Positions 52,737 through 59,233 of a DNA stretch of 64,000 nt are shown piece by piece. The stretch is taken from the NCBI GenBank assembly GCA_038733315.1, contig JAVYPJ010000002.1, forward strand, positions 13,943 to 77,942, given 5' to 3'. Position 1 is the first letter of the stretch, and every line of letters begins with the position of its first letter. The translations under genes were made by a program, and so were the position numbers. This stretch comes from Candidatus Aenigmatarchaeota archaeon (GTDB taxonomy: Archaea > Aenigmatarchaeota > Aenigmatarchaeia > CG10238-14 > SpSt-28). A model generated the notes under the pieces. That model saw nothing but the letters and a program-made list of their open reading frames with translations, was not told the DNA's origin and did not search any database.

Positions 52737-52901
52737 TTAAACCAAAAGAATTCTTAATAAAAGAACTAGGGTTCCAATTAAAACGGAAATTATTATAATA
52801 TGTTCAGCCTTTATTTTAATCTTAGCTTCTGGTTCTTCCTCTAAGAACATTAATCCTCCGTATCCGCTTGGCATCATGTATTTTTTGGGTTTTTTAACCA
52901 T
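52737..52901 (-). CDS. secG: preprotein translocase subunit Sec61beta
   Basis: Manual translation MVKKPKKYMMPSGYGGLMFLEEE..AKIKIKAEHIIIISVLIG... (54 aa). Confidence 0.85.
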   Translation of the reverse strand: MVKKPKKYMMPSGYGGLMFLEEEPEAKIKIKAEHIIIISVLIGTLVLLLRILLV

Positions 52902-52929
52902 AACTAATAATAACAAAAATAATCTTTAT

Positions 52930-54204
52930 ATGGAGATTGTAAGAAGATATTATTCTAATCAAAGAATATTAGATTTTTTGGTTGAATTCGCAAAAGATAG
53001 AGAGGTAGTTGCTGTTTATAAAGACGGTAAATACGGTAAAAGACCAGATATTTTACAATACTCTGGAGATATAATCTCAAAAGTAGAAGAGGGTGCTATA
53101 GCTTTTCACTGTAGCGCAGAAAAGTGGAAAAATCCGATGCAGTTAAGGGCGGGTATGACAAAGAAAGAATATGACGAACTAAGATTAGCATGGGATTTAG
53201 TTATAGATATAGATGTTAAGGATTTTGAAATAGCAAAATTAACAACAAAAGTTATAGCAGAATTTTTAAAAAGATATCAAGTAAAAAATCTATTGATTAA
53301 GTTTACTGGCGGGGATAGTTTTCACATATTAATTCCATCTAAAAGCTTTCCACCTTTTTTTAACAAAATTCCAATATCTCTACAATATGAAGAGCTAAGC
53401 AAAAAGATAATAGAGTTTATAAAAATTTCTGTAGAAGAGGAGCTAAAAAAACTTATGTTAGAGTTTTTCAATCCAAAAGATCTAGTAGAAAAGTTAGGAA
53501 AAAGACTTAGCGAGATTTCTGAGATAAAGCCATTTAGCTTTATTAATATCGATATTTTTGGAGTAAGACATTTATTTAGAATGCCGTATTCGTTACATGA
53601 AAAGACATTATTAGTTAGTCTGCCAATAGATCCAAAAGAAATCTTAAATTTTAGAAAAAGTGATGCAAATCCTGAAAATGTTGATTTTAATGAAAGCTTA
53701 GTCAGTTTTAAGTATGAAAATGATGCAAAATATCTTTTATTAGAAGCTTTTGAAAGAGTTAAATTAGAAATAGAAAAGGAGATAGAATATTTAAAAGAAA
53801 AAATAGACATAAAAGGCAAGAAAAAAATTCCAATAGAATTTTTTCCACCGTGCATAAAAACGATTTTAAATGGTTTAGAGGATGGAAGAAATAGAAGTAT
53901 ATTCGTTTTAATAACATTTCTTAGGAATGCCGGATATGAATGGGATGAGATAGATAAAATATTACACGAATGGAATGAAAAAAACAAACCTCCGCTAAGA
54001 GAAGGTATTATAAGAACTCAGTTAAGATGGCATATGAGACAAGAAAGAGACTTATTACCTCCTAATTGTGACCACTCAACATTTTATAAGGATTATAATG
54101 TTTGTAAACCAGATGAATTTTGCAAAACTATAAGAAATCCTTTATCTTATGCTCTAAAAAAATACCTCCAATCTAAAAAATCCACAAAAAAAGAAAGCCC
54201 TTAA
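52930..54204 (+). CDS. fused DNA primase (PriS-PriL)
   Basis: N-half WDLVIDID, KFTGG.SFH, RHLFRMPYSLHEKT; C-half FPPCI..IL.GL.DGR, PPNC, CKPDEFC...NPL. Start moved to ATG 52930. Confidence 0.92.
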   Translation: MEIVRRYYSNQRILDFLVEFAKDREVVAVYKDGKYGKRPDILQYSGDIISKVEEGAIAFHCSAEKWKNPMQLRAGMTKKEYDELRLAWDLVIDIDVKDFEIAKLTTKVIAEFLKRYQVKNLLIKFTGGDSFHILIPSKSFPPFFNKIPISLQYEELSKKIIEFIKISVEEELKKLMLEFFNPKDLVEKLGKRLSEISEIKPFSFINIDIFGVRHLFRMPYSLHEKTLLVSLPIDPKEILNFRKSDANPENVDFNESLVSFKYENDAKYLLLEAFERVKLEIEKEIEYLKEKIDIKGKKKIPIEFFPPCIKTILNGLEDGRNRSIFVLITFLRNAGYEWDEIDKILHEWNEKNKPPLREGIIRTQLRWHMRQERDLLPPNCDHSTFYKDYNVCKPDEFCKTIRNPLSYALKKYLQSKKSTKKESP

Positions 54205-54235
54205 TAAATTAATTTTTTAGGATTTTCTAAATAGT

Positions 54236-54385
54236 ATGGAGATTGTAACAACAACAATACCTTTAAATGTTAACATATATTCAGCAGCAATAATTTTACT
54301 TATTTTGATTATAATTTTTCTGCTAATAATGACATTAAAGACTAGAAGAGAATTACTAAAGAGAAAATATATAGAAATGCCCTAA
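54236..54385 (+). CDS. small single-TM protein (49 aa)
   Basis: Manual translation MEIVTTTIPLNVNIYSAAIILLILIIIFLLIMTLKTRRELLKRKYIEMP. Confidence 0.5.
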   Translation: MEIVTTTIPLNVNIYSAAIILLILIIIFLLIMTLKTRRELLKRKYIEMP

Positions 54386-54388
54386 CCT

Positions 54389-54814
54389 TTAGCTAGAACT
54401 CTTATAAACCTCATAAGCAATTCTATCTAAAAAACTAATTCCTTTATTAGTTAGCTTTCTACCCCTTTTCTCTATTTTTTCTACGAATCCAGCATTTTCT
54501 AACTGTTGTAGAATAGTTCTAATAATCTTACCACCAGCTTTTCTAAACTTTTCTCTTTTTCTTTTATGCTGTTTTCTTTTTCCATAATAAGTCCTCAATC
54601 TTCTAACACCAATTTCACCATCTATATATAATCTTCTTAAAATACTAGCAGCTCTAATATACCAAAAATCTTCTTGCTCTGGAGGTCTTTCGTTCGCACT
54701 CGATGATTTTGCAAACAATACCCATTTAGGAGGTTTAATTATATCTATTTTTTTCAACTCTTCTTTAAGCCTTTCTACGAATTTCTGCGGATCTACATCA
54801 TAAACGTTTACCAT
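54389..54814 (-). CDS. rps19e: 30S ribosomal protein S19e
   Basis: VYDV, PKW, ERPP...WYIRAASILRRLY, IRTILQQLE. Confidence 0.96.
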   Translation of the reverse strand: MVNVYDVDPQKFVERLKEELKKIDIIKPPKWVLFAKSSSANERPPEQEDFWYIRAASILRRLYIDGEIGVRRLRTYYGKRKQHKRKREKFRKAGGKIIRTILQQLENAGFVEKIEKRGRKLTNKGISFLDRIAYEVYKSSS

Positions 54815-54850
54815 AAAGAATATTTTTTAAAAAATATAAAGATTAATTTT

Positions 54851-55054
54851 ATGTCAATAGAAGAGGTAAAACAAAAAATATTAGAAATATTAAAGGCAAG
54901 GAGCGTAATAAGTAAAAGAGAACTTAGCACGTTAATAGAGAATAGGGATGAATTAGAAAAAGCAATATACGAGCTAATTTCTAACAACTTCATATTTGAA
55001 ATTAATGTATTAGGTGGTAATTATTATGGAATTAAAAACTCCAAAAATAAATAA
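54851..55054 (+). CDS. small winged-helix-like protein
   Basis: QKILEILK...ISKRELS...LEKAIYELISNNFI pattern. Confidence 0.6.
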   Translation: MSIEEVKQKILEILKARSVISKRELSTLIENRDELEKAIYELISNNFIFEINVLGGNYYGIKNSKNK

Positions 55055-55214
55055 AGATCAAGCAATCGCAGTGCTATTTATAATTTTGATTTTTATAGTT
55101 TTTCTTTTAGACGCCTCCACAACCAAAGTAAATTTATGTAAAATAAACGGAAACAGTACCCATCAAAATTGTATAACGCTGCCAATAAAAATATTCCCAT
55201 TTTTAAAAGAGTGA
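55026..55214 (+). CDS. small single-TM protein
   Basis: Hydrophobic helix followed by a C-x9-C segment. Confidence 0.5.
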   Translation: MELKTPKINKDQAIAVLFIILIFIVFLLDASTTKVNLCKINGNSTHQNCITLPIKIFPFLKE

Positions 55215-55358
55215 GATTTTAAATTTTTTTATCACTATATGGTGGATTAGCTAATCTAAAAGAAATATTAGAAATATAACGATAAAAAAACTGAAATTTC
55301 TTTACAGCTATAAACTAAGCTTAAAATCTATATATCCACTTGGCGCATTTTAATAAAT

Positions 55359-55649
55359 ATGGAAAATAAAAGGAAGGATGAGCTAGAAAATGTACTAAAA
55401 ATTCTTTTAGTTTTGAAAAAAATAAATGGATGGATATGGCTAAGAGAATTAGCAAGGAGAACCAAATTACATCATAAAACCGTTTCTAGACTTTTATACA
55501 AATATTTTCAACCCTTTATAGAAGAGCAAAAACTTTTACCTTTTAGGGCAAGGCTTATAAGGCTAAAAGAAGATATTAACATAGAAAAGTTTATAGCTTT
55601 TTGGAAAATAAAAAAATTGCAAGAAATATATGATAAGAAGTTCAAATAA
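55359..55649 (+). CDS. helix-turn-helix DNA-binding protein
   Basis: WIWLRELARRTKLHHKTVSRLL. Confidence 0.75.
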   Translation: MENKRKDELENVLKILLVLKKINGWIWLRELARRTKLHHKTVSRLLYKYFQPFIEEQKLLPFRARLIRLKEDINIEKFIAFWKIKKLQEIYDKKFK

Positions 55650-55651
55650 TT

Positions 55652-56272
55652 ATGGGAGTTTTTGATAGTTTAAAAAAATTATTTAAAAGAAAATCTCAAC
55701 TGGAATTATTACAAGCTGAAGAAAAAAACGAGAGCGAAACTGTAGAAAGTGATGTAGAAACTCAAAAAATAGAAAACGATGCTAAGGAAATAGAAAGAGA
55801 GTTCTATAGTTATGAGCAGGTAATAGATAAAAATTTTGTATATGGGTATATTTTGAAAACTCTAAAATCCATTGAGGAATCTCTAAAAAGAATCGAGTAT
55901 AATATGATAACTAAGGATTGGGCTTCCTTAAATTTAACAGAAAAGAAGGATTTAGAAAATCTTATAAACAAGCTAAATGAAAAAATAGAATATACTAGGA
56001 TACTTTTACCTGCTTCAAGCGCTTTAAGCAGATCAAGCAATAGATTAAATGAAATTATAAGAAAAGCAGCTGAAATAATAAGAAGCAGAAAAGAAATTAG
56101 CTATGAAGATTTGGCCAAGGAGTTAGGAATTTCTAGTAGTTACTTAAGAGCCATAGCAAATTTAATAGAAATAAATAATAATGATATTAAGCGGATAATA
56201 AAAGACAAAAAAGGTTTTTTTGTTTGTGATTTTAGCAATACAGGTGAAAAAGATAAGAACGCAACTGCTTAA
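55652..56272 (+). CDS. amphipathic-helix / coiled-coil / C-terminal HTH protein
   Basis: MGVFDSLKKLFKRK N-terminus, acidic linker, heptads, ISYEDLAKELGISSSYLRAI HTH. Confidence 0.75.
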   Translation: MGVFDSLKKLFKRKSQLELLQAEEKNESETVESDVETQKIENDAKEIEREFYSYEQVIDKNFVYGYILKTLKSIEESLKRIEYNMITKDWASLNLTEKKDLENLINKLNEKIEYTRILLPASSALSRSSNRLNEIIRKAAEIIRSRKEISYEDLAKELGISSSYLRAIANLIEINNNDIKRIIKDKKGFFVCDFSNTGEKDKNATA

Positions 56273-56499
56273 GCTGCTCAAGCAATTCAAGCAGGTAAAT
56301 TAAGCTATTGGCCTTAGAGATCTGAACTGCTTAAGCTGCTTAAGCAGATTAATGCATATGATTAGATAAAAAAAATATCAGGATTGTGTTTTAGTGATCT
56401 GCTGCTTAAGCAGTTCAAGCAGTTGAATCAAAAGTGTTGATGATCTGCTGCTTGTGCTTACAAGCGCTTGAAGCGCTTCAAGCAGTTCAAGCAGTTGAA
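56262..56499. repeat. clusters of 9-bp-period TT(C/T)AAGCAG / CTGCTTAAG repeats
   Basis: Four clusters at 56262-56294, 56319-56347, 56395-56427 and 56441-56499; core palindrome CTGCTTAAGCAG. Confidence 0.9.
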
Positions 56500-57417
56500 A
56501 TTTTTAACATTTTTTGAGAATTCTGAAGTACTCTCGTTAAATATTTTAACTTCTCTGTTGTCACTAAATTATTTAAAAACCCTCACATTTATAGCATGGA
56601 CATTAGTTAGAATTTATAACATCTACTTTAAATCTGCCTTTATTTTTACTCTCTCACACTTCTGGCATTCGTTAATTAGGAGTGCTTTCATAACTCTCAC
56701 GCATTTATAAAATTTTGTATAAACTCTCACATTTCAGTTTTAATTTTTTAGTTTTTACCTTTCTCACATTTTTAAACTCTGGATTATATGGTATATCTTA
56801 ACCACTTTTTAGAGGTTATATAATTTTAAATCTCTCACATTCATGGCTTTAATTTGTTTAACTACTCATAAATAAATAGTAGATATCATTTTATCTATTT
56901 ATTAGTAATATTTTATTTAACGAAAAAAATGCATCATTATAGTATTTAAATTCGATTTTTTGGAAATATACACTTTTTTATATATATTTTTTTGTACTGG
57001 TCACTCTATAGTAGATACTAAATAGTAAATTTTTAGGTTGTTTTTTACAGATTTTTTAGTAAAAAACCTTCTTTAAACCTTTTTTATGCTGAAAAAACTT
57101 GATTTTTAGCAGATAAATCACAAAAAAATCTACGGATAGCCTAACGAAGGCAAAAAATACCCTAAAAAAATTTATAGCTGGCTTACTAGGCCAGTTATAA
57201 TTTTTGAAGTTTCGATTGTATGTGAGGGTTTTTAAATTTTTGTAGTCATTATTAGGTAGATAAAAATTTATTAGGTTTAAACTAGCTTAAATAAAGAAAA
57301 TTGTGTAGTTTGTTAAGCGGTTTTAAGCGGTTTGTAATGCAGTTGTTTTTAATGTCATATAGCCAGCTGGTGCATTTTATTATAGCTAAAATCTATAACT
57401 TTAAATTTTTAACAAAC
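56273..57417. other. putative replication origin / centromere-like locus
   Basis: Only long non-coding stretch in the window; iterons, inverted repeat, AT-rich core and phased A-tracts. Function is inferred. Confidence 0.55.
56571..57237. repeat. CTCAC(AT) iteron array and 18-bp inverted repeat bracketing an AT-rich core
   Basis: CTCAC at 56582, 56653, 56696, 56726, 56763, 56834; ATTTAAAAACCCTCACAT (56571-56588) inverted at 57220-57237. Confidence 0.85.
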
Positions 57418-58150
57418 TTAGCTGAGCTGAGACCTAATTTTAGAAGTCCGTATAAAGTTTTTTTCAAAACTCATCAGAATTTTTTGATAGTGTGGCGTCG
57501 CTTTTTTTATTAAATTTTCTAAACTTTTCGAGTCTTCAAGAATGAATAGCGAGGCATTATTAAGATGTTCTTTGTTAATCCATTTTCCGTATCCAAGCGA
57601 TAATAGTATTTTTTCTACCCACATTTTATACTTCTCTAATCTTCTATCTCTTTCAATAAGCTCTTTCTCTCTCGGATCTTTTGCAAAGGTATAAACTATT
57701 TTATCTTTATATTCCTTTAGTATTTTTTGGCAACCTTCATATATTCTCTCCATATGCCACTCGTTAGATACAATAGATATATAATGAATTTGTCCATATA
57801 TGCTGGAAAGTAGGTGCAACGTCATTTTAGTGTAATAGAGATTAGATAGGGTACTATATGACGCGTTTTCAATAATAATATCGCTTGGATGTATTCCTTT
57901 TTCTTCTAAATATGAGGATTTAATAAAAGAAATATTAGAAAAAATTAGCAATATAGGGAGCTTCGTTTTTTCCACAAGCTATTATTTTAATAATAATTTC
58001 TTTTTCCCCATATAACTTATTGCATAAGTCAGAAACCTTTAACTTCGTGAATAAATCAAAAGCCTTATCTGCTCTAGCTTTTGTATGTGGTTGTAAAGTT
58101 CCATCTGGATTTATTCCAGCACCATGGATTACTATTGCTGCAACTCCCAT
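57418..58150 (-). pseudogene. YdcF/DUF218 (SanA/ElyC-like) gene interrupted by a frameshift
   Basis: ORF 57935-58150 (AIVIHGAG...KARADKA..L...IIACG..EA) continues in ORF 57418-57975 (YLEEKGI....IIIENASYSTLSN...IVSNEWHMER). Confidence 0.72.
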
Positions 58151-58247
58151 AAACTATTATTAAAATATATAAGTAATAGTTAAAAATATCTTTATTAAGT
58201 AGTAAATTTTTTGTAAAAATTTATTTTATTTGGAGAAATGCTTATTT

Positions 58248-58535
58248 ATGAAATCTACTCTTTCTAAGATTATCGATTTACTTAAGGAAAGGGACTACTC
58301 CTTTTCTGAATTATTAGAAATCTTTGGAGAGCAAAATTTATCAAGAAAGGAACTAAAAGAAATTATTGATAGAATAGTTAAAATTTCTAAACACGCGTCT
58401 TGGAAGTTTTATTATAGTCCAGCAAAATGTAGAGAATGTGGTTATGAGGTTAAAAATTATAAACCTATAACTAAATGCCCTAAATGTAAAACCGAAAAAA
58501 TAAAAGATCCAAGATATATTATAAAAACAGAATAA
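58248..58535 (+). CDS. HTH plus zinc-ribbon transcriptional regulator
   Basis: KIIDLLKE...ELLE N-terminus; PAKCRECGY...KCPKCKTEKI..PRY. Confidence 0.8.
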   Translation: MKSTLSKIIDLLKERDYSFSELLEIFGEQNLSRKELKEIIDRIVKISKHASWKFYYSPAKCRECGYEVKNYKPITKCPKCKTEKIKDPRYIIKTE

Positions 58536-58603
58536 CTCTCTCACTGTAAATTTAATCAAAACAATGTAAAGGAAATTTTAATAAGGAATTTAAATATTAT
58601 TTT

Positions 58604-59233
58604 ATGATAGAGAAATTTAATCAAATAAAAGCAGCAATGTTATTAAGGAAGCTGGCTAACGATGAAATATCAACAGAAGAATTAGTGAGATTCAGTAAAA
58701 AAGAGGGAATAATAATTTTTGATATAATAAAATGCATGCCACTAAAAGAAACCGGTCTCGGACTTTTAATAAAGGGATTAATAGATCTTCACGGTCCAGG
58801 CGTCATAAGAACCATGAGAATGGCTTTCAAAAGCGACGGCTACAATGATGCAAAGGAAGCATTAAAGATAGTGGGCAAAGAAAAGGCCTATAAGTTAATT
58901 AATTTCTGGACTGAATTGGGATATATTGAAAAACTTATAGAGATAAAGATTGGTAAAAACGGTGACTTAAAGAATACTGAATTAAACGAAAATTTCTATA
59001 AAGAATTTGTTGAAAGTGGATATAATACGATTATAGTCAGAGTAAAAGGTTCATTTAGCTCTTCAGGGTATAAAACAGTCGCTGGAAAATCGAATTTTCC
59101 TATATGTGTTATAGAGCCCGCGTATATAGCTGGCTTTATAGAGGCTACATTTGATAGAAGATGTGATGTAGATGAAACTAAATGTGAAGCCACTGGTGAT
59201 GAGTATTGTGAATACGTGTTTACACTAATCTAA
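58604..59233 (+). CDS. V4R (4VR) domain protein
   Basis: ELGY, PIC....AYIAGFIE...C.VDETKCEATGDEYCEYVF. Confidence 0.85.
   Translation: MIEKFNQIKAAMLLRKLANDEISTEELVRFSKKEGIIIFDIIKCMPLKETGLGLLIKGLIDLHGPGVIRTMRMAFKSDGYNDAKEALKIVGKEKAYKLINFWTELGYIEKLIEIKIGKNGDLKNTELNENFYKEFVESGYNTIIVRVKGSFSSSGYKTVAGKSNFPICVIEPAYIAGFIEATFDRRCDVDETKCEATGDEYCEYVFTLI

What the first reader, a model, noticed from the sequence alone, without database searches (positions are those of the whole stretch)
55359..57417. Candidate undescribed origin/centromere system: two HTH genes plus a two-family repeat locus
Seen: most intergenic gaps in this window are tens of bp, yet two coupled HTH genes (55359, 55652) are followed by about 1.15 kb of non-coding DNA. 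It is organised in order as AAGCAG 9-mer clusters, six direct CTCAC(AT) iterons, an AT-rich core with a bulged hairpin (AATAAATAG..AT/ATCTATTTATT near 56871-56903), phased A/T tracts, one inverted iteron, then TTAAGCGG copies near 57313-57330. Known: iterons flanking an AT-rich unwinding element is origin architecture, but archaeal origins usually carry ORB boxes next to orc1/cdc6, and neither is visible here. Inference: two repeat families matching two HTH proteins suggests a non-canonical origin fused to a centromere-like site.
Basis: partly seen in the sequence, partly recalled or inferred. Interest (0 to 1): 0.9.

Follow-up and report, generated by a model that had tools for sequence, protein, structure and literature searches.

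The report
Conserved repeat locus beside two DNA-binders
A tiny archaeal genome keeps a long non-coding stretch packed with three kinds of protein-binding repeats next to two unnamed DNA-binding genes; it is real and conserved, but it is probably a chromosome-organising or self-regulating site rather than the replication origin.

Summary
A 96-aa and a 206-aa winged-helix gene are followed by 1145 non-coding bases. These carry tandem 9-mers, six direct and one inverted TCTCAC iteron, phased A/T tracts and a palindrome. Both repeat families occur essentially only here in the 733-kb genome. The layout is kept in all 5 same-genus relatives with a hit. Its elements recur in 9 more distant genomes of the order (Candidatus Aenigmatarchaeota): long motif, short GTGAG array, and tandem 9-10-mers bracketing gene 2. 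The 9-10-mer sequence changes between lineages while its placement stays, so these are co-evolving protein sites.

The origin reading is not supported.
- No canonical ORB was found, and orc1 lies 20 kb away with no intergenic space beside it.
- In three relatives with long contigs, strand-composition skew switches 44-70 kb from this locus.
- The switch falls at another gap beside DNA polymerase B. In this genome that gap has five iterons spaced exactly 21 bp plus inverted copies.

Best reading (about 0.35): a single-copy, centromere-like or nucleoid-anchoring site bound by the two adjacent proteins. Chief rival (0.3): an elaborate self-regulatory operator array. Function is untested.

The parts
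55328..55351 (+). Promoter region of gene 1: TATA-like CTATATAT followed by box F (CCACTTGGCGCATTTT, 55336-55351), 7 nt before the ATG.
   Evidence: The same order TATA - box F - ATG is seen upstream of the gene 1 homologue in L033 (G047) (read by eye). Operator role is inferred.
55359..55649 (+). Gene 1: 96-aa winged-helix protein with a long C-terminal helix (MarR/ArsR-like fold); orphan family.
   Evidence: No Pfam, NCBIfam or PHROG family above cut-off. AlphaFold model pLDDT 88.5. Foldseek gives only generic MarR-type hits, best E 9e-4. Alignment A2 has 11 sequences.
55652..56272 (+). Gene 2: 206-aa protein with an N-terminal cationic amphipathic helix (MGVFDSLKKLFKRK), helical/coiled middle part and C-terminal winged helix (residues about 130-195).
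   Evidence: Alignment A1 has 13 sequences. Model pLDDT is above 90 for residues 131-190 and low elsewhere. Foldseek gives only generic winged-helix hits, none at E<=0.001. No family in Pfam, NCBIfam or PHROGs. Membrane-binding role of the N-terminus is inferred from sequence only.
56012..56040 (.). Cluster of 9-mers inside gene 2; it encodes the low-confidence linker ASSALSRSS.
   Evidence: The linker has low pLDDT at residues 119-126.
56262..56500 (.). Four clusters of 3-5 tandem 9-mers (CTGCTTAAG / CAGTTCAAG / CGCTTGAAG). The first overlaps the stop codon of gene 2. Units are partly palindromic (CTGCTTAAGCAG).
   Evidence: (family D1). Genome-wide density maximum. Present in all 5 same-genus gaps.
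56571..56845 (+). Six direct iterons, consensus about AAnTCTCACATTT, with irregular spacing of 30-73 nt.
   Evidence: All 6 weight-matrix hits lie here. 3 to 8 direct copies in each same-genus gap.
56900..57199 (.). AT-rich stretch with A/T tracts phased at 10.5 bp (intrinsic bend).
56966..57025 (-). Block C. Conserved in the genus; read on the - strand it is the single copy of the order-wide long motif (TATA-like AT core followed by GAGTG).
   Evidence: Long motifs in other families. Unique to the locus in G055. The equivalence of block C with the long motif was judged by eye.
57171..57200 (.). Block D: palindrome TTTATAGCTGGC-N7-GCCAGTTATAA. It is the only such site in the genome and is kept in all 5 same-genus gaps, with paired changes in G003.
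57220..57237 (-). Inverted iteron, an 18-nt perfect inverted repeat of the first direct iteron (56571-56588).
   Evidence: (I8). One inverted copy stands after block D in all six genus members.
57363..57378 (+). Second copy of box F (CCAGCTGGTGCATTTT) at the right edge of the gap, with no gene behind it. The contigs of G001 and G002 end at this box.
   Evidence: A variant joint 57405>58242 in two runs removes the DUF218 gene.

Best explanation
The locus is a single-copy, lineage-specific protein-DNA assembly site. Three kinds of sites are kept in a fixed order next to the genes of two orphan winged-helix proteins, which most likely bind them:
- a long bipartite motif;
- an array of 5-8 short asymmetric GTGAG/CTCAC iterons;
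- clusters of tandem 9-10-mers that bracket gene 2.

Proposed working (all inferred):
- Gene 1, a small dimer, binds the palindromic box F / block D sites and shuts off its own promoter.
- Gene 2 binds the tandem 9-10-mers in and beside its own gene through its C-terminal winged helix.
- Gene 2 oligomerises through its helical middle part.
- Gene 2 holds this one chromosomal place at the membrane, or hands it to a motor encoded elsewhere, through its N-terminal amphipathic helix.

In this reading it is a centromere-like or nucleoid-anchoring site. In three relatives it lies tens of kb from the probable replication origin, as ParB-parS or Noc sites do in bacteria. It is not itself the origin.

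The weaker claim, that this is a real, conserved, locus-specific protein-binding element tied to these genes, I hold at about 0.85. The centromere-like function I hold at about 0.35.
For: Shown by tool results:
1. Both repeat families are confined to this locus genome-wide. The long motif is unique to the locus in G055. So the presumed binders have no other detectable targets, which fits a cis-acting site better than ordinary regulators.
2. Order and content are conserved in all 5 same-genus relatives with a hit.
3. In 8 genomes of other families (L030-L037) and in G012, the order long motif > GTGAG array > gene 2 is kept.
4. In 6 of the 7 loci examined, and in G012, a tandem 9-10-mer family sits both in the 5' linker-coding part and at or after the 3' end of gene 2.
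5. The repeat unit differs by lineage while its placement stays: CTGCTTAAG here, AAGCGCTTCA in L032, TTTAAGCGC in L030, GATTCGTATC in G012 (9 of 9 copies in 481 kb lie in gene 2). This is co-variation of site and binder.
6. In this genus gene 2 is inverted relative to the array, yet the cis order long motif > iterons > 9-mers is kept. So the array does not work as a 5' leader of gene 2.
7. Tandem units of 9-10 bp (about one helical turn) and A/T tracts phased at 10.5 bp suit a wrapped nucleoprotein complex.
8. Gene 2 is near single-copy and limited to part of one order: f1 8/9 and f2 34/42 genomes, 54/201 in the phylum sample. It is usually linked to gene 1.
9. The locus lies about 70, 59 and 44 kb from the skew switch in G012, G039 and G055.

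From recall, not from any call: parS sites lie within or near parB; Noc has an N-terminal membrane helix; TubR/tubC and ParR/parC are phased tandem repeats.
Against: - No NTPase (ParA, ParM or TubZ type) is encoded next to the locus. The five ParA/MinD-like genes of this genome are all on the other large contig. A classical partition cassette is therefore not present.
- No binding, localisation or expression data exist. No RNA run was listed.
- GTGAG motifs also stand directly behind TATA-like boxes upstream of gene 2, and next to box F upstream of gene 1, in other families. Plain autoregulation would explain this.
- Gene 1 was not found near gene 2 in G012.
- In this genome the locus and the PolB-side origin candidate lie on different contigs, so nearness to the origin is not shown here.
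- The sign of the skew switch differs between families. Whether that switch is the origin in all of them is therefore not settled.
- The amphipathic N-terminus is modelled with low confidence.
Confidence: 0.35

Rival explanations
1. Elaborate self-regulation only. The two winged-helix proteins are repressors of their own genes. The iterons, box F, block D and the 9-10-mers are operators (roadblock or looping between the sites at the two ends of gene 2), with no role in chromosome maintenance. The 1.1-1.4 kb gap of this genus is an expanded operator region.
For: - Box F sits between the TATA-like box and the ATG of gene 1 here and in G047.
- In other families a GTGAG copy directly follows a TATA-like box 15-25 nt upstream of gene 2, and a TTCTCAC copy adjoins box F upstream of gene 1.
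- Both proteins have generic regulator folds.
- There is no motor gene nearby.
- In this same genome another pair of small winged-helix genes flanks its own repeat array, on contig C1 at 178.6-179.0 kb. TF-plus-array units may be a habit of these genomes.
Against: - Five to ten short sites, 1-4 long sites and several clusters of tandem units is far more than self-repression usually needs.
- It takes the longest non-coding stretch of a genome whose median gap is 33-38 nt.
- A regulator pair conserved across an order with no target other than itself has no evident benefit.
- The array keeps its order relative to the 9-mers even where gene 2 is inverted and the array lies behind the gene.
Confidence: 0.3
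2. Replication origin. The iterons are initiator sites, the AT-rich phased stretch is the unwinding element, and gene 1 and/or gene 2 is a lineage-specific initiator or origin-accessory protein. It could be a secondary or captured origin, like oriC3-WhiP of Sulfolobus.
For: - Direct and inverted iterons flank an AT-rich, bent core in this genus.
- Long and short forms of one motif recall ORB and mini-ORB.
- No canonical ORB was found in G000 or G055:C1: 0 matches with up to 6 mismatches to the consensus printed in PMC4153887 Table 2.
- orc1 has no intergenic space beside it in G000 and G055.
- A primase gene lies 2 kb away here, and PolB lies 2-3 kb away in L030 and L031.
- Initiator-binding sites in the initiator's own promoter are usual for replicator-initiator pairs (review PMC4010727, passages read).
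- 11 of 46 strong gene 2 hits lie within 2.5 kb of a contig start (no control, contig lengths unknown).
Against: - In G039 the corrected skew peaks sharply at 300-310 kb. It has the same slope on both sides of the locus at 360.4 kb, which excludes an active origin there under either polarity.
- G055 is collinear with G039; its switch is near 220 kb and the locus is at 267 kb.
- In G012 the V-minimum is at 214.5 kb and the locus is at 287 kb.
- All three switches coincide with another gap that has a more classical origin anatomy next to PolB.
- In other families the stretch between the direct array and the inverted iteron is coding.
- Iteron spacing is irregular.
- Neither protein has an ATPase or a known initiator family.
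Confidence: 0.15
3. Something else at the DNA or RNA level: a polar replication-fork barrier (RTP/Tus-like), a recombination (dif-like) site, a non-coding RNA gene, or a remnant of an integrated element.
For: - Opposed polar repeats and a small winged-helix dimer with a long C-terminal helix recall RTP-Ter of Bacillus (recalled, not from a call).
- Block D is an 11-7-11 palindrome of dif-like size, with paired changes in G003.
- The right edge of the gap is a variable junction in the population.
Against: - The locus is not at a skew switch, so it is not where forks meet.
- No tyrosine recombinase (PF00589) was found in this 94%-complete genome.
- No Rfam family reaches threshold in 54000-59000; all 6 matches at E<=1 are far below their gathering scores.
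- No tRNA lies nearby.
- The sequence between the conserved blocks is not conserved.
- No relative of gene 2 was found in viral contigs.
- The locus is chromosomal and syntenic within the genus.
Confidence: 0.1

Closest known systems
Bacterial ParB-parS and Noc-NBS (recalled from memory, no call)
   Same: A DNA-binding protein whose sites lie in and beside its own gene. A single chromosomal region, tens of kb from the probable origin in three relatives. Noc carries an N-terminal amphipathic membrane helix, as gene 2 seems to.
   Different: No ParB/Noc fold or CTPase domain. No adjacent ParA. The sites are tandem 9-10-mers rather than 16-bp palindromes. An extra iteron array and a second protein are present.
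Archaeal SegAB (abstracts of PMC8682754 and PMC12139799 seen in the listing) and pNOB8 AspA-ParB-ParA (recalled)
   Same: A small site-specific archaeal DNA-binding protein that binds a centromeric sequence next to its own operon.
   Different: SegB is encoded with the ParA-type ATPase SegA. Here no ATPase is linked, and neither protein matched any Pfam or NCBIfam family.
Type II/III plasmid centromeres: ParR-parC, TubR-tubC (recalled)
   Same: Clusters of short tandem repeats of about one helical turn, right beside the gene of a small dimeric binder (TubR is a winged helix).
   Different: No actin- or tubulin-like motor gene. Chromosomal and order-wide rather than plasmid-borne. No relative in viral contigs.
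Archaeal oriC with ORB / mini-ORB and Orc1/Cdc6 (PMC4010727 passages; PMC4153887 Table 2)
   Same: Long and short versions of one asymmetric motif. An AT-rich core between inverted copies in this genus. Unique in the genome.
   Different: No ORB sequence. Not next to orc1. Not at the skew switch. The flanked core is coding in other families.
Iteron plasmids: Rep with iterons and an inverted-repeat operator (recalled)
   Same: Direct repeats beside the gene of a winged-helix protein, with palindromic sites in its promoter.
   Different: Spacing is irregular at 30-129 nt, not about 22 bp. That regular pattern is instead found at the PolB-side gap of this genome: five copies exactly 21 bp apart.

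Membership tests
Archaeal Orc1/Cdc6-ORB origin | ORB or mini-ORB sequence elements | tested here: not met
   The consensus CTTCCAGTGGAAACGAAAGGGGT (PMC4153887 Table 2) gives 0 matches with up to 6 mismatches in all 7 contigs of G000 and in G055:C1. Core matches are scattered, with none at the locus.
Archaeal Orc1/Cdc6-ORB origin | Adjacent initiator gene (orc1/cdc6 or whiP) | tested here: not met
   The only full-length orc1 is at C2:91456-92484, 20 kb beyond the gap, packed between genes with gaps of 6-13 nt. Gene 1 and gene 2 match no initiator family.
Archaeal Orc1/Cdc6-ORB origin | AT-rich unwinding element flanked by inverted repeats | tested here: inconclusive
   Met in this genus. In other families the inverted copy lies beyond gene 2 and gene 1, so the flanked stretch is coding.
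Archaeal Orc1/Cdc6-ORB origin | Coincides with the switch of strand-composition skew or the peak of marker frequency | tested here: not met
   Skew switches 59 kb (G039), about 44 kb (G055) and about 70 kb (G012) away. In G000 itself the test is inconclusive, because the contigs are unordered. Marker frequency is not testable with these tools.
Partition (par) locus / centromere | Tandem short repeats next to the gene of the centromere-binding protein | tested here: met
Partition (par) locus / centromere | Adjacent motor NTPase (ParA/SegA, ParM, TubZ) | tested here: not met
   None among the neighbours. Five ParA/MinD-like genes exist, all on contig C1.
Partition (par) locus / centromere | The protein binds the repeats and the site is needed for inheritance | not testable with these tools
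   Needs EMSA or ChIP and genetics.
Iteron-type replicon (Rep + iterons) | Regularly spaced direct repeats of about two helical turns | tested here: not met
   Spacing is 30-129 nt and irregular in six genomes.
Xer/dif resolution site | Tyrosine recombinase in the genome | tested here: not met
   PF00589: 0 matches in G000 (94% complete). The control rang in 14 of 14 genomes.
Known RNA family | Match to an Rfam covariance model at its gathering score | tested here: not met
   In 54000-59000 there were 6 matches at E<=1, all far below their gathering scores. There are two tRNAs in the whole window, neither within 28 kb of the locus.

The most novel reading that the evidence does not exclude
An archaeal chromosome-anchoring system without a linked motor. 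Gene 2 forms a membrane-tethered filament on lineage-specific tandem 9-10-mers that bracket its own gene. Gene 1 and the GTGAG iteron array nucleate and limit it. This holds an origin-near region of a very small DPANN chromosome at the envelope for inheritance. It would be a segregation principle distinct from SegAB and ParABS.
Probability: 0.2. Interest if true: 0.8.

Novelty: new variant of a known kind. Interest (0 to 1): 0.55.

Why it matters
- How DPANN archaea with 0.6-1 Mb genomes replicate and hand on their chromosomes is almost unstudied. Origins are usually assumed to lie at orc1 (for example, genomes are rotated to ORC1/Cdc6 in bioRxiv 10.64898/2026.05.13.725050, passages read).
- This work shows that in one order of Aenigmatarchaeota orc1 has no origin-like neighbour.
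- It separates two conserved repeat loci. One sits at the skew switch beside PolB and is a concrete origin candidate. The other, the finding, is a single-copy assembly site with two orphan DNA-binding proteins whose sites co-vary with lineage.
- Both give short, defined DNA and protein reagents for EMSA or DAP-seq without needing a culture.
- If the finding is a centromere-like anchor, it would be a new solution to chromosome segregation in archaea. If it is only self-regulation, it is an oddly costly one for so compact a genome.

Tried and rejected
- Known RNA: Rfam at E<=1 over 54000-59000 gave only chance-level hits.
- tRNA scan: none near.
- Protein families: Pfam, NCBIfam and PHROGs gave nothing above cut-off for either protein. 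PDB profile searches gave nothing below E 0.03. Foldseek gave only generic winged helices. The ESM Atlas gave scores of 0.80 or less and TM below 0.5, which are leads only.
- Viral origin: no relative in IMG/VR.
- dif/Xer: no recombinase.
- Canonical ORB: none.
- Search for other iteron clusters by exact 8-mers was too insensitive to be useful.
- Inspection of the gaps near the skew minimum of G039 (705-765 kb) found small HicAB-like genes (named by eye from the translation), tRNA-type and coding remnants but no origin-like repeats.
- rRNA orientation as a guide to fork direction gave opposite answers in G000 and G039.
- Raw cumulative GC skew of G000 is dominated by coding strand. After correction, the contigs of G000 cannot be ordered.
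- Sequencing runs: no RNA holder was listed, so nothing can be said on expression. The four runs laid were contigs only. They show the locus collinear in related strains of two studies (for example one contig spanning 55221-57913) and a variant lacking 57406-58241. They give no depth profile usable for replication.
- Complex prediction of gene 2 (56-206) with gene 1: no verdict, score 0.00 in both runs. This is not evidence either way.
Supplementary files of papers were not consulted and may hold origin predictions I did not see.
- Print searches: (listings and abstracts only) showed no paper on an Aenigmatarchaeota origin or on this locus. This is not proof of absence.
Full report
WHAT IS THERE. 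The window is G000:C2:13943-77942 of a 733-kb, 28%-GC genome in 7 contigs. Source names of close homologues say Candidatus Aenigmatarchaeota.

Gene 1 (55359-55649, 96 aa) and gene 2 (55652-56272, 206 aa) are 2 nt apart. They are followed by 1145 nt without a credible gene, up to DUF218 (57418-57975, - strand). With a crude mask of ORFs of 70 aa or more, the median gap in the genome is 33-38 nt. Only a CRISPR array and the rRNA region give longer ORF-free stretches.

The gap holds, in order:
- four clusters of tandem 9-mers (56262-56500), with a fifth cluster inside gene 2 at 56012-56040;
- six direct TCTCAC iterons (56581-56839);
- an AT-rich stretch with A/T tracts phased at 10.5 bp (power reached by 0.8% of 1853 background windows);
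- a 60-nt conserved block C (56966-57025);
- an 11-7-11 palindrome, block D (57171-57200);
- one inverted iteron (57221), which with the first direct copy forms an 18-nt perfect inverted repeat;
- TTAAGCGGTT twice (57313-57332);
- box F (57363-57378), whose other copy lies between the TATA-like box and the ATG of gene 1 (55336-55351).

Both main repeat families are confined to this locus in the whole genome.

THE PROTEINS. Neither protein reaches any Pfam, NCBIfam or PHROG cut-off, and neither matches a solved structure by sequence.
- Gene 1 models confidently (pLDDT 88.5) as a MarR/ArsR-like winged helix with a long C-terminal helix.
- Gene 2 has a confident C-terminal winged helix (pLDDT above 90 for residues 131-190). 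It also has a helical middle part and a conserved N-terminus, MGxFDxLKKLFKRK.
- I read that N-terminus as a cationic amphipathic helix. This is inference from the sequence; the model is weak there.

CONSERVATION IN THE GENUS.
- A single-protein search found gene 2 in 39 of 61 relatives.
- In all 5 same-genus genomes with a hit (G001-G005; G006 had none), gene 1 and gene 2 are adjacent. They are followed by 1.0-1.4 kb of non-coding DNA with the same order of elements.
- In G001 and G002 the contig ends in that gap, at box F.
- Block D keeps its pairing through changes on both arms in G003 (read by eye).
- The hairpin at 56863-56907 and the TTAAGCGG pair are not kept.

CONSERVATION IN OTHER FAMILIES. 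In eight genomes of other families (L030-L037) and in G012 the elements recur in another arrangement:
- one to four copies of a long motif of about 28 nt (an AT core of the ATATAT type followed by GnGTGA);
- then 3-10 short AAGTGAGAGTT-type copies directly upstream of gene 2;
- then gene 2;
- in L032-L037, a small zinc-ribbon ORF and gene 1 convergent behind it.

Block C of the window, read on the - strand, matches the long motif. So in this genus gene 2 has been inverted relative to the array, while the order long motif > iterons > 9-mers is unchanged.

THE TANDEM 9-10-MERS. In 6 of the 7 loci searched, and in G012, one repeat family has copies both in the part of gene 2 that encodes its variable N-terminal linker and at or just after its 3' end.

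The unit differs by lineage:
- CTGCTTAAG here;
- AAGCGCTTCA in L032;
- TTTAAGCGC in L030;
- an AAACAAGC-type unit in L036;
- GATTCGTATC in G012, where all 9 copies in 481 kb lie in gene 2.

Same placement with changing sequence is what co-evolving protein-binding sites look like. Their presence outside the reading frame argues against mere protein-level repeats.

With a profile, gene 2 is found in f1 8/9, f2 34/42 and 54/201 genomes of the phylum sample, nearly always once per genome. No relative was found in viral contigs.

IS IT THE ORIGIN?

Points for:
- the anatomy in this genus;
- no canonical ORB anywhere in G000 or G055:C1 (consensus taken from PMC4153887 Table 2);
- an orc1 gene with no intergenic space beside it in G000 and G055;
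- replication genes nearby in some lineages (primase here; PolB in L030 and L031).

Points against come from strand composition. Raw GC skew follows the coding strand. I therefore computed third-position G-C and A-T skews per gene, subtracted the genome-wide sense-strand mean, and cumulated them on the + strand.
- G039:C2 (786 kb) gives a clean two-armed curve. It has a sharp maximum at 300-310 kb and a broad minimum at 716-740 kb. The locus at 360.4 kb has the same slope on both sides.
- G055:C1 is collinear with G039. It changes slope near 220 and 660 kb, and the locus is at 267 kb.
- G012:C1 (481 kb, same family as G000) gives a V with its minimum at 214.5 kb. The locus is at 287 kb.
- In G000 the two large contigs behave as two arms, and the locus lies in a flat part. 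This is inconclusive.

One DPANN genome in print shows a bacteria-like skew with the origin at cdc6 (PMC5905446, passages read). So skew can be informative in this group.

A BETTER ORIGIN CANDIDATE. All three switches fall on one syntenic gap, upstream of a conserved cluster made of a small winged-helix gene, a gene of about 320 aa, and PolB.
- In G000 (C1:178591-178967, outside the window) this gap is AT-rich. It has five TTTATGAA-type repeats exactly 21 bp apart plus two inverted copies. The GC3 curve of C1 changes slope at about 180-185 kb.
- The G012 and G039 gaps carry the same motif in both orientations.
- The sign of the switch is opposite in G012 and G039. I cannot explain this, so I call the site a replication landmark and likely origin, not a proven one.
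- The finding's locus lies about 70, 59 and 44 kb from it in G012, G039 and G055.

OTHER READINGS TESTED.
- No Rfam family.
- No tyrosine recombinase for a dif site.
- Not at a fork-meeting point, so not a terminator trap.
- No partition NTPase beside it. Five ParA/MinD-like genes lie on the other contig.
- Contigs of public runs from two studies carry the same locus collinear, with SNPs. A variant joins 57405 to 58242 and so lacks the DUF218 gene. The right border of the gap is therefore a variable junction.

HOW IT MOST LIKELY WORKS. What is shown is a unique, conserved array of at least three kinds of sites tied to two winged-helix genes, with site-protein co-variation.

What is inferred:
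- Gene 1 dimers bind box F and block D and repress their own promoter.
- Gene 2 binds the tandem 9-10-mers in and beside its gene, oligomerises, and through its N-terminal helix ties this one chromosomal place to the membrane or to a motor encoded elsewhere.
- One of the two proteins binds the asymmetric iterons.

This works like ParB-parS, Noc or SegB centromeres (recalled; SegAB abstracts seen). It is not a member of those families, because the fold, the site type and the missing linked ATPase all differ.

Plain self-regulation is nearly as likely, since GTGAG copies sit in both promoters in other families. Its weakness is the cost and the lack of any other target. An origin, perhaps a secondary one, keeps about 0.15.

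LIMITS.
- ORF calls are my own crude ones.
- Several motif equivalences were judged by eye.
- Relatives are kin, not independent samples.
- The skew correction is home-made.
- No expression or binding data exist.
- The search of earlier findings and paper supplements were closed.

Noticed in passing
G000:C1:178591-178967 (outside the window); syntenic gaps at G012:C1:213854-214213 and G039:C2:301186-301547: An AT-rich gap between two small winged-helix genes, upstream of a conserved winged-helix / ~320-aa / PolB cluster. It has five TTTATGAA-type iterons exactly 21 bp apart plus inverted copies. Corrected GC3 skew switches at this place in G012 and G039, and changes slope there in G055 and G000. 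It is a likely replication origin of this order.
   Followed up: partly
G012:C1 about 214 kb versus G039:C2 about 305 kb: The skew switch at the same syntenic PolB-side gap has opposite sign in the two families: a cumulative minimum in G012 and a maximum in G039. rRNA orientation does not settle fork direction. Unexplained.
   Followed up: partly
window 57363-57420; ends of L027 and L028: The contigs of two same-genus genomes end exactly at box F. In two public runs a variant joins 57405 to 58242 and so lacks the DUF218 gene. The right edge of the gap is a population-variable junction.
   Followed up: partly
window 52876-54204: A single 442-aa ORF matches both the small and the large primase subunit families (PF01896 and PF04104), that is a fused PriS-PriL. 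It lies 1.1 kb upstream of gene 1 (about 2 kb before the gap).
   Followed up: no
G000:C1:254700-257030: A CRISPR array of about 35 repeats (unit like TTAGAATCAGACTAATGTAGGATTGAAAG). It is the longest ORF-free stretch of the genome.
   Followed up: no
G000:C1:699-26735 and neighbours; G000:C2:1-3761 and C2 280-288 kb: Giant ORFs (one frame of about 8,900 aa) fill the first 70 kb of C1 and both ends of C2. They distort simple skew and strand-bias curves.
   Followed up: no
L032-L037, between gene 2 and gene 1 (for example L036:5200-5330, - strand): A small conserved zinc-ribbon ORF (about 45-60 aa, two CxxC pairs) sits between gene 2 and gene 1 in the f2 family. It is missing at this position in the window's genus.
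   Followed up: no
G039:C2:305083-305200 (L093:5083-5200): Two weak iteron-like GTGAG matches 104 nt apart in a 200-nt gap right at the skew maximum of G039. This may be chance (about 0.06-0.14 such pairs expected).
   Followed up: no
table: 11 of 46 strong gene 2 hits across the order start within 2.5 kb of a contig start. This hints that assemblies often break at the repeat array. There is no control and contig lengths are unknown.
   Followed up: no
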